DNA of 5,837 nucleotides from a virus (taxonomy: Duplodnaviria > Heunggongvirae > Uroviricota > Caudoviricetes). This document shows positions 73-4,906 of the stretch, in pieces. Numbering within the stretch: position 1 is the stretch's first letter; each line of letters opens with the position of its first letter. Both the position numbers and the translations under genes were made by a program. The notes under the pieces were generated by a model. It was not told the origin of the DNA. It did no database searches and worked only from the letters and a program-made list of their open reading frames with translations. The stretch is taken from the IMG/VR virus record IMGVR_UViG_2684622619_000009; one strand, given 5' to 3'.

Positions 73-1128
73 ATGGCTAATGCCTGGCTCAGATTGTGGC
101 ATGACATGCCAAATGACCCCAAGTGGCGAACGATTGCCAGGGTATCAGGACAGCCAATCGCAACAGTGATGGCAGTGTATATCCATCTTCTGGTGAGCGC
201 GTCACGAAATGTCACGACATGTCACGGCGTGTCACTACGTGGTCACATTGATGTCACGACGGAAGATTTAGCAAGTGCGCTTGATGTGACGGAAGACGTA
301 ATTGATTCAATTTTGCATGCAATGCAGGGGCGGGTTCTGGATGGTGACCTTATTTCCGGATGGGAAAAACGTCAGGTGCTGAAAGAGGACAATGGTAACG
401 TTTCGCAAACGGCAAAATCCCCGGCAGAGCGCAAGAGAGCGCAGCGGGAGCGGGAAAAGCTGCGGAAACATAATGCTGATTGTCACGATGAGTCACGACG
501 TGTCACGCATCTGTCACGACAAGTCACGACAGATAAAGATACAGATAAAGATACAGATAAAGATACAGATACAGAATTAAACCCCACACATAACGCGCGC
601 GAGAGTATTCCGACCAGTGAGTCGAATGGTGCGCCGTTGCAGACAGCCGAACCTGAATACCTGGACGGCCTGAGCGAACCGATCGGGAAATTTTCGATGA
701 CTACTGTCTGGCAGCCGTCGCCGGATTTTCGACAACGGGCAGCAGTGTGGGGTATGGCTCTGCCTGAGCCGGAATTTACACCTGCTGAGCTTGCCGCATT
801 CCGGGATTACTGGATGGCGGAGGGGAAGGTTTTCACGCAGGTTCAGTGGGAGCAGAAATTTGCCCGCCACGTGCAGCACGTCAGGGCACAGGTAAAACCA
901 GTCAGCAAGGGGGGAAGCCATGCAGCATCAGGTGGCACGGCATCACGGGCAGTTCAGGAAATCCGGGCTGCACGCGAACAGTGGGAACGTGACAACGGAT
1001 TTATCAGCAACGGAAACGGCCTGGAAGCTGTGGGAGCTCATGGGGGAGGTGTATTCGAACCGCTGGACTCAGAAGAACGGGGCCGCACCTTCGAAGCTCT
1101 GGATTGCCCAGATTGGTGCGATGACTGA
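73..1128 (+). CDS. Phage replication initiator (lambda O-like replisome organizer with DnaT-like C-terminal region)
   Basis: Long ORF (track 67..1128); ATG at 73 sits 6 nt after AAGAGG (61-66), so 73 is preferred over GTG 67. Iteron clusters and an AT-rich repeat lie inside the coding sequence as in lambda O/ori. The C-terminal segment (TTVWQPSPDF...FTPAELAAFRDYWMAEGKVF...WEQKF) resembles DnaT-like domains of phage replication proteins, from memory. Followed directly by a P-like gene. Confidence 0.75.
   Translation: MANAWLRLWHDMPNDPKWRTIARVSGQPIATVMAVYIHLLVSASRNVTTCHGVSLRGHIDVTTEDLASALDVTEDVIDSILHAMQGRVLDGDLISGWEKRQVLKEDNGNVSQTAKSPAERKRAQREREKLRKHNADCHDESRRVTHLSRQVTTDKDTDKDTDKDTDTELNPTHNARESIPTSESNGAPLQTAEPEYLDGLSEPIGKFSMTTVWQPSPDFRQRAAVWGMALPEPEFTPAELAAFRDYWMAEGKVFTQVQWEQKFARHVQHVRAQVKPVSKGGSHAASGGTASRAVQEIRAAREQWERDNGFISNGNGLEAVGAHGGGVFEPLDSEERGRTFEALDCPDWCDD
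201..262. repeat. Iteron cluster A: six GTCAC(G)-core repeats phased at ~10-11 bp
   Basis: GTCAC starts at 201, 211, 221, 231, 242 and 253, all in direct orientation at helical-turn spacing; an inverted GTGAC copy follows at 286-290. Located inside the O-like CDS. Confidence 0.6.
482..530. repeat. Iteron cluster B: five GTCACG repeats phased at ~10-11 bp (putative initiator binding sites of the origin)
   Basis: GTCACG at 482, 492, 502, 513 and 523, directly abutting the AT-rich tandem repeat; this iterons-then-AT-rich layout matches lambda-type origins. Confidence 0.6.
531..575. repeat. 12-bp tandem repeat AGATAAAGATAC x3 plus partial copy (AT-rich, putative DNA unwinding element)
   Basis: Perfect copies at 531-542, 543-554 and 555-566, then AGATAC AGA. 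Encodes a (DKDT)n linker in the O-like protein. Confidence 0.7.
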
Positions 1129-3273: not shown

Positions 3274-3301
3274 AGGAGGCCGCCCGAAAGGGCGGTAAGA
3301 A
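3274..3301 (+). promoter_or_regulatory. Translation initiation region: AGGAGG followed by a GC hairpin with GAAA tetraloop immediately upstream of ATG 3302 (possible hairpin-bridged Shine-Dalgarno)
   Basis: AGGAGG at 3274-3279; stem CCGCCC (3280-3285), loop GAAA, stem GGGCGG (3290-3295); then TAAGAA and ATG 3302. There is no U-tract, so it is not an intrinsic terminator. Confidence 0.35.
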
Positions 3302-3520
3302 ATGAAACATTATTTAGAAAAAAATTACCCACGAAAGAGCAGAACAACAGAGTTTCTGTTTTTCATTCTGTTTATAGTGTTGATGATACCGATATCCCCG
3401 CTATTACTGGTCTGGATAATTGGAAGGACATTTGAACCAGTTATTGAGCTATATACCGATGTGACATGGGAATCATTCAGCGCACTGCACAATAAAATTA
3501 ATCCGTATAAGGAAAACTGA
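3302..3520 (+). CDS. Small single-pass membrane protein (72 aa) in an AT-rich moron-like insert
   Basis: ORF with a basic N-terminus (KNYPRKSRTTE), one strongly hydrophobic segment (FLFFILFIVLMIPISPLLLVWIIG) and a soluble C-terminal tail. The gene and the ~125 bp upstream are visibly AT-rich compared with flanking genes (by eye, not computed). Stop TGA 3518-3520 sits 1 nt before the next ATG. Confidence 0.6.
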   Translation: MKHYLEKNYPRKSRTTEFLFFILFIVLMIPISPLLLVWIIGRTFEPVIELYTDVTWESFSALHNKINPYKEN

Positions 3521-3521
3521 T

Positions 3522-4079
3522 ATGAGCACTATTACCAGAGAACGCGCGGAGATTAAATCATACATCACAGGCTTCCTGAGCGACTCGGCGCACGATAACA
3601 AGTCTTCAGACAGCCTGCTGGCTAATGTGTTTCGTATCGCGCTGGCATCACTGGAAGCAGAGCCGATAGCAATGGTAGTGCCTGATGAAATGGATTTGCT
3701 TACCTGCCATCTCGACGGTGTAACTAAAACATATGCTGATGGCTGGAACGCCTGCCGCGTCGCCATGCTTCAGGCCGGAAACTTTCGGGAAAATAAGAAT
3801 TCGTCAACCAACAATTTTCGGGAAATCTCGGAAACGTCAACCAGATCTCCGATAACTCTGGATGGCTGGATAAGCTGTACTGAGCGAATGCCTGAAAAGA
3901 GCCAGAACGTGCTTATTTCGATGAATATCGATAGCGAGGCTGGGCCATTAATATATTCCGCACGCTATCTCGGAGGCACGTTCCGGCGCGGAGGTATAGC
4001 AGTTAGTCCGGGTAATGATCTTAGGCAAGCAACCCACTGGATGTCGCTACCAGAACCGCCGCAGGAGGTGAATCAATGA
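3522..4079 (+). CDS. DUF551-like prophage protein (185 aa)
   Basis: ATG 3522 is 8 nt after AAGGA (3509-3513). The C-terminal ~70 aa (DGWISCTERMPE...ATHWMSLPEPPQ) matches my recollection of the DUF551 signature (W-I-s...LPe start, THWMPLPEPP end). Not verified by search. Confidence 0.7.
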   Translation: MSTITRERAEIKSYITGFLSDSAHDNKSSDSLLANVFRIALASLEAEPIAMVVPDEMDLLTCHLDGVTKTYADGWNACRVAMLQAGNFRENKNSSTNNFREISETSTRSPITLDGWISCTERMPEKSQNVLISMNIDSEAGPLIYSARYLGGTFRRGGIAVSPGNDLRQATHWMSLPEPPQEVNQ

Positions 4080-4159
4080 CCTGGCCTGAAGCATTCACAA
4101 CGGTAGGAATTGCGATGGCGGTGGCGCTGGTGGTGTATTCGATTTGCCGCTGGGGATAA
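4076..4159 (+). CDS. Small hydrophobic peptide (27 aa), translationally coupled to the DUF551-like gene; absent from the supplied ORF track
   Basis: ATG 4076 overlaps the upstream TGA (ATGA) and lies 7 nt after GGAGG (4064-4068). Product MTWPEAFTTVGIAMAVALVVYSICRWG is a single predicted transmembrane helix. Stop TAA 4157-4159. Confidence 0.4.
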   Translation: MTWPEAFTTVGIAMAVALVVYSICRWG

Positions 4160-4165
4160 AAACGG

Positions 4166-4194
4166 TTTGCGGGAAAAGGATAGTTAAGTAGAAT
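4166..4194 (+). promoter_or_regulatory. Putative sigma70 promoter of the hok mRNA
   Basis: -35-like TTTGCG/TTGCGG (4166-4172), 16-17 bp spacer, -10 TAGAAT (4189-4194); the predicted transcript start near 4201 coincides with the conserved hok 5' leader sequence. Confidence 0.4.
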
Positions 4195-4198
4195 TGCT

Positions 4199-4226
4199 GC
4201 GGGTGCTTGAGGCTATCTGCCTCGGG
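4199..4226 (+). promoter_or_regulatory. hok mRNA 5' leader: stem-loop GAGGC-TATCT-GCCTC and the 5' partner of the fold-back pairing
   Basis: GCGGGTGCTTGAGG (4199-4212) is complementary to CCTCAACGCACCCGC (4492-4506) with one bulge; hairpin at 4209-4223. The layout resembles the 5' end of plasmid R1 hok mRNA as I recall it. Confidence 0.5.
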
Positions 4227-4243
4227 CATGAACACCAACGGCA

Positions 4244-4319
4244 NNNNNNNNNNNNNNNNNNNNNNNNNNNNNNNNNNNNNNNNNNNNNNNNNNNNNNNNN
4301 NNNNNNNNNNNNNNNNNNN
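4244..4319. other. Run of 76 N (masked or unresolved sequence) inside the hok locus
   Basis: Directly visible. It interrupts the hok leader and hides the start of the hok reading frame. Confidence 0.99.
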
Positions 4320-4442
4320 ATCGTCATCTGTTTAACCGTCATAGTGACGGCACTGGTAACGAGGAAAGACCTCTGCGAGGTGCGAATCCGAACCGGTCAG
4401 ACGGAGGTCGCTGTCTTCGTAGACTACGAATCTGAGAAGTAA
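4287..4442 (+). CDS. hok: Hok/Gef family type I toxin (HokC/HokD-like); N-terminal ~11 codons fall inside the N-run
   Basis: Visible translation 4320..4439 is IVICLTVIVTALVTRKDLCEVRIRTGQTEVAVFVDYESEK, stop TAA 4440-4442. It closely matches the Hok/Gef core as I recall HokC/HokD (…ALVTRKDLCEV.IRTGQTEVAVF…). Start 4287 is inferred from a ~51-aa family length and assumes the N-run length is accurate. Confidence 0.8.
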   Translation, partial: XXXXXXXXXXXIVICLTVIVTALVTRKDLCEVRIRTGQTEVAVFVDYESEK

Positions 4443-4449
4443 GAGACCA

Positions 4450-4506
4450 GGCGGGGGAGTAATCTCCCGCCACCTCTGATGTGTCAGGCATCCTCAACGC
4501 ACCCGC
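4450..4506 (+). promoter_or_regulatory. hok mRNA 3' structured region: post-stop hairpin and fold-back-inhibition (fbi) element
   Basis: Hairpin GGCGGGGGAG-TAAT-CTCCCGCC (4450-4471) with no U-tract; 4492-4506 pairs with the 5' leader at 4199-4212. Confidence 0.5.
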
Positions 4507-4561
4507 GCTTTACCATACTGAAAATGCTGTTTGAATGTTCATCTCTGAAAGAGGACTATGA

Positions 4562-4906
4562 ATGAAAAAGGTATTGATTGCAGCACTTATTTCCGGTGTG
4601 TCTTTTGGCGCTTTTGCACAGCAGGGTGGTTTCCAGGGGCCAGAAGCAGAGCGTTCAACAGTAGCGCAGGCAAAAGAACTGAAGGATGATGCATGGGTTA
4701 TCCTTGAAGGGAGCATCGTTAAAAAAGTGGGTGATGAACGTTATGAGTTTCGTGACAATAGCGGGACAATTGTCACGGATATTGATGACAGCGTATGGGC
4801 CGGGCAGAATGTTTCTCCGAAAGACAAAGTAAGAATTGAGGGTGAAATTGATAAAGACCTGAGCAGTGTTGAAGTTGATGTAAAGGCACTGAAATTATTA
4901 AAGTAA
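4562..4906 (+). CDS. YgiW/YdeI (BOF, bacterial OB-fold) family periplasmic protein with N-terminal signal peptide
   Basis: ATG 4562 is 5 nt after GAGGAC (4551-4556). Signal peptide MKKVLIAALISGVSFGAFA, then QGGFQGP and the pattern DDAWV.L.G.IV...Y.F.D.SGTI..DID...W.G..V.PKD.V.I.GE.DKD..SVE.DVK, which fits E. coli/Salmonella YgiW(VisP)/YdeI from memory. Product is 114 aa. Confidence 0.85.
   Translation: MKKVLIAALISGVSFGAFAQQGGFQGPEAERSTVAQAKELKDDAWVILEGSIVKKVGDERYEFRDNSGTIVTDIDDSVWAGQNVSPKDKVRIEGEIDKDLSSVEVDVKALKLLK

What the first reader, a model, noticed from the sequence alone, without database searches (positions are those of the whole stretch)
3522..4159. DUF551-like protein translationally coupled to an unlisted 27-aa hydrophobic peptide
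The ORF at 4076-4159 is not in the supplied track but has a near-ideal context: GGAGG 7 nt upstream and an ATGA overlap with the DUF551-like stop. Its product is essentially a single transmembrane helix. The hok promoter begins 7 bp after its stop. A soluble protein of unknown function paired with a coupled micro-membrane-peptide is worth testing as a two-component accessory module.
Basis: partly seen in the sequence, partly recalled or inferred. Interest (0 to 1): 0.55.

Follow-up and report, generated by a model that had tools for sequence, protein, structure and literature searches.

The report
Unannotated prophage membrane micro-protein gene
The 27-codon ORF behind the DUF551 gene is a real, selected but unannotated gene for a tiny single-pass membrane protein found in many E. 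coli/Shigella lambdoid prophages; it is a free-standing cassette that sits behind many different genes, not a dedicated partner of DUF551.

Summary
Window 3522-4079 encodes a DUF551 protein (Pfam 72.5 bits). ORF 4076-4159 encodes 27 aa, with GGAGG 7 nt upstream and an ATGA stop/start overlap. The hok/sok locus starts just downstream.

The mini-ORF is a real gene. 114 of 121 independent copies keep exactly 27 codons, and 119 of 121 keep a start codon and an SD. Polymorphism gives dN/dS of about 0.5 (P=0.007). A 74%-identical Shigella copy gives ω=0.21 (P=0.002). The two other reading frames look neutral. There is no RNA-structure signal. RefSeq never annotates it, and Pfam, NCBIfam and PHROGs have no family for it.

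The "two-component DUF551 + peptide module" reading is not supported. Only about 31% of upstream partners end in DUF551. About 52% end in an unrelated module and 9% are a zinc-ribbon/coiled-coil protein. Downstream, the hok promoter follows in 49% of copies and a hairpin in 36%. In another context DUF4222-xis-int follows. Partners reassort freely.

Most likely it is a portable SD+ORF cassette encoding an N-out/C-in inner-membrane helix that acts through helix-helix contacts. Its function is unknown. I rate it a new member of a known kind, of modest interest.

One side observation: unrelated small hydrophobic ORFs precede prophage hok promoters far more often than chance (54% vs 4%).

The parts
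3522..4079 (+). DUF551-domain protein gene (185 aa). This is the upstream neighbour in this window, one of several alternative neighbours elsewhere.
   Evidence: Pfam PF04448 at 72.5 bits, residues 115-181; phrog_60, unknown function; RefSeq WP_000104474.1; no solved relative.
4064..4068 (+). Shine-Dalgarno GGAGG, 7 nt upstream of the mini-ORF ATG. It belongs to the portable mini-ORF cassette.
   Evidence: Sequence. An SD-like motif is present upstream of all 119 copies that keep a start codon. It is retained in L222, where no DUF551 gene precedes.
4076..4159 (+). Unannotated 27-codon gene for a single-pass membrane micro-protein, MTWPEAFTTVGIAMAVALVVYSICRWG. Its ATGA overlaps the upstream stop.
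   Evidence: ORF. 114 of 121 copies have exactly 27 codons. Polymorphism: syn/non/stop 24/29/0 vs expected synonymous fraction 0.285, P=0.007; control frames dN/dS 0.98 and 1.6. Pairwise ω=0.21, Fisher P=0.0017, vs 1.5 and 3.8 in the other frames. Diverged phage copies give pN/pS 0.16-0.69. Hydrophobic core KD 2.11. Invariant residues W3, E5, A6, G11, A15, V16, L18-W26 in the 14-variant alignment A1.
4167..4194 (+). Putative hok mRNA promoter (TTGCGG-N16-TAGAAT). It starts 7 nt after the mini-ORF stop.
   Evidence: The block is conserved in front of the hok leader in many loci. It was not picked up by the generic consensus scan. The assignment is by homology to R1 hok (own knowledge).
4201..4442 (+). 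hok/sok/mok type I toxin-antitoxin locus. Window 4245-4320 is an N mask that hides 159 nt; the hok CDS ends at 4442.
   Evidence: Rfam sok RF01794 at 113.5 bits on L001 4402-4576. Hok/Gef CDS WP_000813258.1 lies at L001 4571-4726. Sequence comparison.
4562..4906 (+). BOF / YgiW-like OB-fold protein with a signal peptide, downstream of hok. It is part of the block shared with 933W.
   Evidence: Pfam BOF at 115 bits. 96.8% identity to the 933W region from the mini-ORF leader through this gene.
3302..3520 (+). DUF4014 protein gene, upstream neighbour of the DUF551 gene (context only).
   Evidence: Pfam DUF4014 at 87 bits; phrog_1832.

Best explanation
Window 4076-4159 is a genuine, unannotated protein-coding gene. 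It encodes a 27-residue single-pass inner-membrane micro-protein carried by lambdoid (pro)phages of Escherichia and Shigella. It is a self-contained mosaic cassette of about 100 nt: an SD, a start codon that overlaps the stop of whichever gene lies upstream, and 27 codons. It has recombined behind at least four unrelated kinds of early-operon genes. It usually closes the transcription unit, being followed by a terminator-like hairpin or by the independent hok/sok unit, or it precedes DUF4222-xis-int. In this window it sits in the nin region (DnaT-domain/O-like and lambda P-like genes ... DUF4014, DUF551, mini-ORF, hok/sok, YgiW-like). There it would be translated from the delayed-early transcript, either by re-initiation after DUF551 termination or by direct initiation at its own SD.

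Shown here: the ORF, its SD and start conservation, purifying selection on the amino-acid sequence, the hydrophobic core, partner reassortment and the narrow host range.

Inferred, not shown: the peptide inserts N-out/C-in. The only charges are E5 near the N-terminus and R25 near the C-terminus. Trp3 and Trp26 lie 23 residues apart, about one bilayer thickness. The peptide then acts through transmembrane helix-helix packing along its invariant small-residue face (G11xxxA15, A13xxxA17), either with itself or with a host or phage membrane protein, as the characterised bacterial small membrane proteins do. The target and the phenotype are unknown.
For: Coding status:
- 119 of 121 anchored copies keep an in-frame start, 114 of 121 have exactly 27 codons, and all 119 have an SD-like motif.
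- Segregating variants in codons 2-18 are 24 synonymous, 29 non-synonymous and 0 stop, against an expected synonymous fraction of 0.285 (P=0.007). Counts by codon position 1:2:3 are 14:12:27. The control frames give dN/dS 0.98 and 1.6, with 5 stop-creating variants in frame 1.
- The window vs the 74%-identical S. flexneri copy gives pS 0.56, pN 0.19, ω 0.21, Fisher P=0.0017. The other frames give ω 1.5 and 3.8 and are interrupted by stops.
- VT1-Sakai, PhiR12_1 and TH18 copies all have 27 codons, with pN/pS 0.16-0.69.
- In-frame 6-nt deletions preserve the frame.
- There is no RNA-structure signal (z +0.68 and +0.97).
- In ST131 the RefSeq annotation leaves a gap (1505-1588) almost entirely filled by the mini-ORF (1501-1584) inside a tightly packed operon.

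Independence from DUF551:
- Partner tallies are, and upstream and downstream types reassort freely.
- 933W provides a counter-example, and L222 has only a 36-nt SD-bearing leader upstream.

Membrane character.

Spread:
- Up to 1491 of 5426 complete E. coli genomes, up to 5 copies per genome.
- 90 phage records including 933W and VT1/VT2-Sakai.
- Only E. coli and S. flexneri among 185,579 species genomes, apart from two probable contaminant contigs.
Against: - There is no direct evidence of translation. The peptide was not found in the full-text library or in the supplements of an EHEC Ribo-seq study and an Enterobacteriaceae micro-proteome study.
- Divergence within the family is low, so ORF intactness alone is weak evidence. 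The case rests on the synonymous/non-synonymous tests, which use few sites (about 78 nt).
- Defective alleles exist: TGG to TGA at codon 3 in three variants, a 1-nt deletion in codon 2 in 2 of 121 copies, and a few 3' frameshifts. The gene is therefore dispensable in some lineages.
- Topology, oligomerisation and target are inferences from composition only.
Confidence: 0.75

Rival explanations
1. One reading: the DUF551 protein and the coupled micro-peptide form a dedicated two-component accessory module, in which a soluble effector works with its own membrane partner.
For: In this window the two genes overlap (ATGA) and share an SD-bearing junction. DUF551 is the single most recognisable partner family (37-38 of 121 in IMG/VR). 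In at most about half of E. coli records that carry the sequence (826 of 1522), the match also covers the 26-nt 3' end of the upstream gene in this window; the L0139-type junction shares part of it. Even where the DUF551 gene is absent, a remnant of its 3' end persists as the leader (L222). This suggests the cassette was first assembled behind a DUF551 gene.
Against: About two thirds of copies follow genes without DUF551. In 933W the DUF551 gene is coupled to L0139 and the mini-ORF follows L0139. No DUF551-peptide fusion exists among the proteins containing the peptide; the apparent clustering with 121-aa DUF551 proteins is an artefact. DUF551 is far more widespread than the peptide.
Confidence: 0.08
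2. The mini-ORF belongs functionally to the hok/sok cassette. For example, it could be a small membrane protein that modulates Hok action or membrane stress, or its translation could insulate the hok promoter from read-through transcription.
For: The hok promoter abuts the stop codon in 59 of 121 anchored copies, and further copies have hok within about 300-400 nt. The window and 933W share one block running from the mini-ORF leader through hok/sok to the YgiW-like gene, in different genome regions. Small hydrophobic ORFs of three unrelated families end within about 110 nt of the hok -35 in 38 of 71 distinct contexts, against 4.2% of control windows.
Against: About 36% of copies are followed directly by a terminator-like hairpin, and others by DUF4222-xis-int with no hok in the locus. 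51 of 121 loci have no hok anchor downstream. Selection acts on the amino-acid sequence, not just on the act of translation. The linkage could simply reflect shared ancestry of a mosaic block.
Confidence: 0.1
3. The ORF is not functional. It is conserved because the sequence is young and hitch-hikes with neighbouring functional DNA (the hok promoter upstream region, or a recombination junction), and gene callers rightly ignore it.
For: Most copies are more than 90% identical. The 3' half is nearly invariant at the DNA level in close relatives. Knock-out alleles circulate. No expression data were found.
Against: There is an excess of synonymous change specific to this frame. In the diverged copies the invariant C-terminal VVYSICRWG is kept through synonymous changes (GTG/GTT, TAT/TAC, TGC/TGT, CGC/CGA). 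The start codon, SD and exact length are kept behind unrelated upstream genes and in front of unrelated downstream sequences. There is no RNA-structure signal.
Confidence: 0.08
4. The peptide is the C-terminal membrane anchor of the upstream protein, added by programmed -1 ribosomal frameshifting near the SD-like GGAGG.
For: The mini-ORF frame is open for 17 codons upstream of its ATG. An internal SD can stimulate frameshifting (own knowledge: dnaX, prfB). One of 121 loci carries a mutational in-frame fusion to the upstream gene.
Against: There is no slippery heptamer in 4022-4079 (read directly). The upstream sequence differs completely between partner classes while the ATG is kept. In L222 the upstream gene ends 36 nt before the ATG. 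No long fusion proteins exist in the database.
Confidence: 0.02

Closest known systems
Bacterial small single-pass membrane proteins that act by binding larger membrane proteins (for example AcrZ, KdpF, MgtS, PmrR, CydX; own knowledge)
   Same: Size (under 50 aa), a single hydrophobic helix, short charged ends, frequent omission from annotation, and translation from within operons.
   Different: No sequence relationship: the best NCBIfam hit is KdpF at 14.7 bits against a cutoff of 26.85. This peptide is phage-borne, mosaic and confined to Escherichia/Shigella prophages. Its target is unknown.
Hok/Gef type I toxins (the immediate neighbour at window 4201-4442)
   Same: A small hydrophobic inner-membrane peptide, physically adjacent in half the copies, carried on the same prophages.
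   Different: No Hok_Gef profile match. It has no mok-like leader ORF, no antisense RNA and no promoter of its own; it is translated as the last cistron of an early operon. It also occurs without hok.
Lambda/Stx-phage exo-xis ('ea') region accessory genes, including the mosaic Ea22 variants, of which Ea22_V2 carries DUF551 (PMC10834534)
   Same: The same genomic neighbourhood: the mini-ORF follows Ea22/EaA-like mosaic genes and precedes DUF4222-xis-int in VT1-Sakai, PhiR12_1, ST131 and S. flexneri prophages. It shows the same mosaic, portable-module behaviour.
   Different: The described exo-xis proteins (Orf60a, Orf61, Orf63, Ea8.5, Ea22) are soluble. This membrane peptide did not come up in the searches of that paper for DUF551, 933W and exo-xis, and it is not annotated in the phage records inspected.
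Other small hydrophobic ORFs found here upstream of prophage hok promoters (family B/C, 29-34 aa, ..YCLxVxLMDRLxx; family D, 72 aa)
   Same: The same position (ending within about 110 nt of the hok -35), similar size and hydrophobicity. In some loci A and C occur in tandem.
   Different: No detectable homology to the mini-ORF (hhalign probability 1.2%). B/C and D are annotated as hypothetical or membrane proteins in some genomes.

Membership tests
DUF551 (PF04448), for ORF 3522-4079 | Profile match above Pfam's gathering score | tested here: met
   72.5 bits against a cutoff of 22, full-length profile 1-68, residues 115-181.
Protein-coding gene, for ORF 4076-4159 | Reading frame, length, start codon and SD conserved across independent contexts | tested here: met
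   114 of 121 copies have exactly 27 codons, 119 of 121 have a start codon, and all 119 have an SD-like motif. Upstream and downstream neighbours differ.
Protein-coding gene, for ORF 4076-4159 | Purifying selection on the encoded amino acids, specific to this frame | tested here: met
   Polymorphism dN/dS of about 0.48, P=0.007, with control frames at 0.98 and 1.6. Pairwise ω 0.21, P=0.0017, with the other frames at 1.5 and 3.8. pN/pS 0.16-0.69 among diverged phage copies.
Protein-coding gene, for ORF 4076-4159 | Direct evidence of translation (Ribo-seq, mass spectrometry, tagging) | not testable with these tools
   Nothing was found in the text library or in two relevant supplement sets.
Single-pass membrane micro-protein | One hydrophobic stretch long enough to span the bilayer, flanked by polar or charged ends | tested here: met
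   17-residue core with mean KD 2.11 (FTTVGIAMAVALVVYSI), the top value of 26 comparable ORFs in the window. E5 and R25 flank the core and W3 and W26 are invariant in the 14-variant alignment. Membrane localisation itself was not tested.
Dedicated two-gene module DUF551 + peptide | Consistent co-occurrence of the two genes across relatives | tested here: not met
   DUF551 is the upstream partner in 37-38 of 121 copies. 933W and L222 are counter-examples. DUF551 occurs widely without the peptide.
Hok/Gef toxin family, for the mini-ORF | Hok_Gef profile match | tested here: not met
   No Hok_Gef hit in Pfam even at E up to 1.
Type I toxin-antitoxin toxin, for the mini-ORF | Own promoter plus an overlapping or adjacent antisense RNA antitoxin | tested here: inconclusive
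   No Rfam hit over 4076-4159. No promoter-like site lies in front of it, and it overlaps the upstream stop. An uncharacterised antisense RNA cannot be excluded by these scans.
hok/sok locus, for 4201-4442 | sok covariance-model match and a Hok/Gef CDS | tested here: met
   RF01794 at 113.5 bits against a cutoff of 59, on the unmasked identical locus. RefSeq Hok/Gef CDS.

The most novel reading that the evidence does not exclude
Small hydrophobic membrane-protein genes of at least three unrelated families, this mini-ORF among them, have been recruited independently to the position immediately upstream of prophage hok/sok loci (54% of distinct contexts against 4% of control windows). That would suggest a functional pairing. 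For example, a co-resident micro-protein might tune membrane susceptibility to Hok, or might protect the induced phage's own host cell from Hok until lysis. In that case, hok/sok in prophages would be a three-part unit rather than a two-part one.
Probability: 0.08. Interest if true: 0.7.

Novelty: new member of a known kind. Interest (0 to 1): 0.33.

Why it matters
The gene sits in medically important Stx-converting phages (933W, VT1-Sakai, VT2-Sakai). Its DNA matches in up to about a quarter of complete E. coli genomes, sometimes in several copies. Even so, it is missing from RefSeq/PGAP annotation and from Pfam, NCBIfam and PHROGs. It is a clean, well-supported example of an overlooked phage micro-protein under selection, and a ready candidate for small-protein studies on membrane targets, lysogen fitness and superinfection effects.

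Showing that it is a portable cassette rather than a DUF551 partner saves effort that would otherwise go into a two-component hypothesis. It also redirects attention to a different question: why do small membrane ORFs gather at operon ends and in front of hok/sok?

Tried and rejected
I padded it with the in-frame upstream extension instead.
- The 90% cluster that joins the peptide to 121-aa 'DUF551' proteins looked like evidence for a fusion. The sequences show it is an artefact: the 121-aa proteins lack the peptide.
- Programmed frameshifting onto DUF551 was rejected: there is no slippery site, upstream sequences vary, and L222 has a 36-nt gap.
- The weak PHROG hit (phrog_4612, E=0.019) was not reproduced by diverged members, so the peptide is not a member.
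- KdpF and DUF883_C hits were far below their cutoffs.
- Homology between the mini-ORF and the B/C hydrophobic ORFs was rejected (hhalign probability 1.2%).
- RNA-structure explanations for the conservation were rejected (z-scores positive).
- Literature and supplement searches for the peptide found nothing. That Ribo-seq study did not target prophage induction (my recollection), so absence there is probably uninformative.
- The generic promoter scan does not detect the hok promoter, so I rely on homology and conservation.
- One pairwise table contains a mis-sliced L222 row. It should be ignored.

Full report
**What is in the sequence**

The window is a lambdoid prophage segment, 100% identical over 3300-4560 to E. 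coli O157:H7 chromosomes (locus L001). Its genes, all on the + strand, are:
- a DnaT-domain (O-like) protein and a lambda-P-like replication protein;
- DUF1627 and an HTH protein;
- DUF4014 at 3302-3520;
- the DUF551 protein at 3522-4079 (Pfam 72.5 bits against a cutoff of 22);
- the 27-codon ORF at 4076-4159;
- a hok/sok/mok locus;
- a YgiW/BOF-like gene at 4562-4906.

GGAGG lies at 4064-4068, 7 nt before the ATG, and ATGA at 4076-4079 overlaps the DUF551 stop. The block TTGCGG-N16-TAGAAT starts 7 nt after the mini-ORF stop. On the unmasked twin locus, the Rfam sok model (113.5 bits) begins at the position that corresponds to window 4201.

Window 4245-4320 is a run of 76 N that replaces 159 nt of real sequence: the sok region, the mok start and the hok start.

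**Is the mini-ORF a gene?**

I built two samples from IMG/VR.

The first was anchored outside the ORF, on the 5' end of the hok leader. In it, the mini-ORF lies 129 nt from the anchor in 19 of 117 loci, and at 292, 382 or 1000-1500 nt in others. Of the 33 IMG/VR copies found this way:
- 32 are intact;
- one has TGG to TGA at codon 3;
- one carries an in-frame 6-nt deletion;
- two use a shifted start after an in-frame deletion.

The second sample was anchored on codons 19-25 and gave 121 copies. Of these, 119 keep an in-frame start (115 ATG, 4 GTG), 114 have exactly 27 codons, and all 119 have an SD-like motif within 18 nt.

Divergence is low, so intactness alone proves little. I therefore tested substitution patterns.
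- Among 53 segregating variants in codons 2-18, outside the anchor, 24 are synonymous, 29 non-synonymous and none creates a stop. The expected synonymous fraction is 0.285 (P=0.007, dN/dS about 0.48). Counts by codon position 1:2:3 are 14:12:27.
- The same variants read in the other two frames give dN/dS 0.98 and 1.6, with five stop-creating variants in one of them.

A back-translated scan of one genome per species recovered a 74%-identical copy in S. flexneri and E. coli: MSWPDAIVTLGMVFAVAFVVYSICRWG, also 27 codons. Against the window it gives pS 0.56, pN 0.19 and ω 0.21 (Fisher P=0.0017). The alternative frames give ω 1.5 and 3.8 and contain stops. The invariant C-terminal VVYSICRWG is kept through synonymous changes.

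Further diverged copies in VT1-Sakai, PhiR12_1 and TH18 are all 27 codons, with pN/pS 0.16-0.69. RNA folding of the junction and of the ORF is no better than shuffled sequence (z +0.68 and +0.97).

I conclude that this is a protein-coding gene under purifying selection. Direct evidence of translation is still lacking.

**Is it known?**

The exact peptide is present in GenBank as a 'hypothetical protein' or 'bacteriophage protein' in a minority of older annotations. RefSeq/PGAP and every phage record I opened omit it. POCJ13 even annotates opposite-strand ORFs across it. In an ST131 prophage the RefSeq gap between neighbouring genes (1505-1588) is almost entirely filled by the mini-ORF (1501-1584).

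Pfam, NCBIfam and PHROGs have no family for it.

The DNA is found in up to 1491 of 5426 complete E. coli genomes, with up to five copies per genome and 110 places on plasmids. The peptide is found in 90 phage records, including 933W and VT1/VT2-Sakai. Outside Escherichia and Shigella I saw only sporadic database entries (E. albertii, Salmonella) and two probable contaminant contigs.

**Is it a partner of DUF551?**

It is not a specific partner. In the sample anchored on the mini-ORF, the stop of the upstream gene overlaps the start (ATGA) in 114 of 121 copies, but that upstream gene varies:

| Upstream gene | Copies (of 121) |
|---|---|
| C-terminal '..KLPDKAMDYLxRNGL..' module, no Pfam match | 63 |
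| DUF551 C-terminal domain | 37-38 |
| 933W-L0139-like zinc-ribbon/coiled-coil protein | 11 |
| Other genes | a few |

In 933W itself the order is DUF551 (L0140), then L0139, then the mini-ORF, then hokW.

In S. flexneri L222 the preceding gene is a 189-aa protein with no significant Pfam match (weak DNA_pol3_beta_2 hit, below cutoff) that ends 36 nt upstream. Only a short leader carrying GGAGG-N7-ATG remains.

The 3' boundary is just as modular:

| Downstream element | Copies (of 121) |
|---|---|
| hok promoter | 59 |
| One of three GC-rich, terminator-like hairpins | 44 |
| Other | 18 |

In another recurrent context the order is mini-ORF, DUF4222, a 48-aa ORF, xis, int. Upstream and downstream types combine freely.

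No DUF551-peptide fusion protein exists among the proteins that contain the peptide. The cluster that seemed to suggest one is an artefact. DUF551 itself is a widespread portable domain: it occurs in Ea22_V2 of Stx phages, in YfdS and in phages of other genera (PMC10834534).

The mini-ORF is therefore a free-standing SD+ORF cassette. It is typically the last cistron of an early operon, and DUF551 is simply its neighbour in this prophage.

**How it most likely works**

Shown: the peptide has a 17-residue hydrophobic core (KD 2.11). In the alignment of 14 variants (A1) it has invariant W3, E5, A6, G11, A15, V16 and L18-W26; rarer alleles depart from some of these, for example W3R.

Inferred:
- With E5 as the only N-terminal charge and R25 as the only C-terminal charge, the positive-inside rule predicts N-out/C-in.
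- The two tryptophans lie 23 residues apart, which fits interfacial anchoring across one bilayer.
- The G11xxxA15 and A13xxxA17 face suggests helix-helix packing.

My best guess is a small membrane protein that binds itself or a larger membrane protein. It would be made with the delayed-early (nin) genes in this prophage and with the pL 'ea' genes in others. Its target and phenotype are unknown. A functional tie to hok/sok is a minority possibility.

**Things that remain odd**

- Three variants carry TGA at the same codon 3, always followed by C, with the rest of the frame open. These may be independent knock-outs or leaky, down-tuned alleles.
- Small hydrophobic ORFs of three unrelated families end just upstream of prophage hok promoters in 38 of 71 distinct contexts, against 4.2% of control windows. 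This could reflect shared mosaic ancestry and the habit of both elements to sit at operon ends, or it could reflect a real functional pairing.

**Verdict**

The two-component interpretation is not supported. I rate it a new member of a known kind (phage-encoded small membrane proteins), of modest interest.

Noticed in passing
window 4245-4320 (corresponds to L001 4445-4603): A run of 76 N stands in for 159 nt of real sequence in the otherwise 100%-identical O157:H7 locus. It hides the sok region, the mok start and the hok start codon. Coordinates downstream of the mask are therefore shifted by 83 nt relative to the real genome.
   Followed up: yes
L003-L122, about 40-150 nt upstream of the hok leader anchor (e.g. 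L116, L023, L053): Besides this mini-ORF, two other unrelated families of small hydrophobic ORFs end just before prophage hok promoters: B/C (29-34 aa, ..A(V/I)YCLxVxLMD(R/H)Lxx) and D (72 aa, two helices, ..MCIEYWR). Together, 38 of 71 distinct contexts have such an ORF, against 4.2% of 1240 control windows. Family B is followed by the hairpin CGATATGGGAATTCCCATATCG. None of these is in PHROGs.
   Followed up: partly
codon 3 of the mini-ORF: L073, L229 (phage POCJ13), L231 (phiSTEC1589-Stx1c): Recurrent TGG to TGA at the same codon, always in a TGA-C context, with the remaining 24 codons open even at 59% identity. No premature stop was seen at any other codon among the copies examined. These are either knock-outs or leaky read-through alleles.
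   Followed up: partly
window 4111-4135 (GCGATGGCGGTGGCGCTGGTGGTG) and database proteins P0099, P0101, P0102, P0104-P0107: The helix-coding DNA is a degenerate hexanucleotide repeat. Variants with one to three extra GCGATG units (IAM(AM)nAVAL) occur, lengthening the helix by 2-8 residues. P0072 carries a longer tandem duplication of the first 15 codons.
   Followed up: no
database proteins P0013, P0017, P0018, P0078, P0082, P0088, P0089, P0094, P0100, P0107: PGAP labels contig-edge fragments that are in the mini-ORF frame as 'DUF551 domain-containing protein, partial'. The 90%-identity clustering then chains the 27-aa peptide to unrelated 121-aa DUF551 proteins. This is an annotation and clustering artefact that can mislead.
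   Followed up: yes
L229 706-834 and 791-973, minus strand (Shigella phage POCJ13 gp73, gp72): Two small opposite-strand CDSs are annotated across the mini-ORF position. They are probably miscalls that fill the gap left by the unannotated (and here TGA-interrupted) mini-ORF.
   Followed up: no
L219 1501-2300, L222 5638-6321, L227, L228: A second conserved context for the mini-ORF: Ea22/EaA-like genes, mini-ORF, DUF4222 gene, 48-aa ORF, excisionase, integrase. This is the distal pL operon, with no hok.
   Followed up: partly
L221 (1.8-kb contig binned to a Segatella copri MAG) and L224 (431-bp contig in a Xanthomonas pisi assembly): Both contigs carry E. coli-type mini-ORF plus hok promoter sequence. 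L224 encodes the 933W peptide allele. They are almost certainly contamination or mis-binning, not true hosts.
   Followed up: partly
L230 (Escherichia phage vB_EcoM_TH18, 133,882 bp, classified Vequintavirinae); also phages 24-2-1, 18-1-2 and Av-05: Records of large phages (TH18 is classified Vequintavirinae; the others are 79-121 kb) contain lambdoid EaA/ea22 genes together with an intact diverged mini-ORF (MTWPEAFTTVGVVMAVAFAVYSVCRWG). This could be real mosaicism or chimeric assembly.
   Followed up: no
one IMG/VR locus (230-aa reading frame ending ..DYLKRNGTDKRGGCFAMTWPEAF..): A frameshift fuses the upstream '..KLPDKAMDYL..' protein in frame to the mini-ORF, giving a natural membrane-anchored fusion. 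It occurs in 1 of 121 copies.
   Followed up: no
window 920-1128: The ORF listing shows a 209-nt overlap between the DnaT-domain ORF (67-1128) and the lambda-P-like ORF (920-1582). This probably comes from taking the earliest possible start for the second gene.
   Followed up: no
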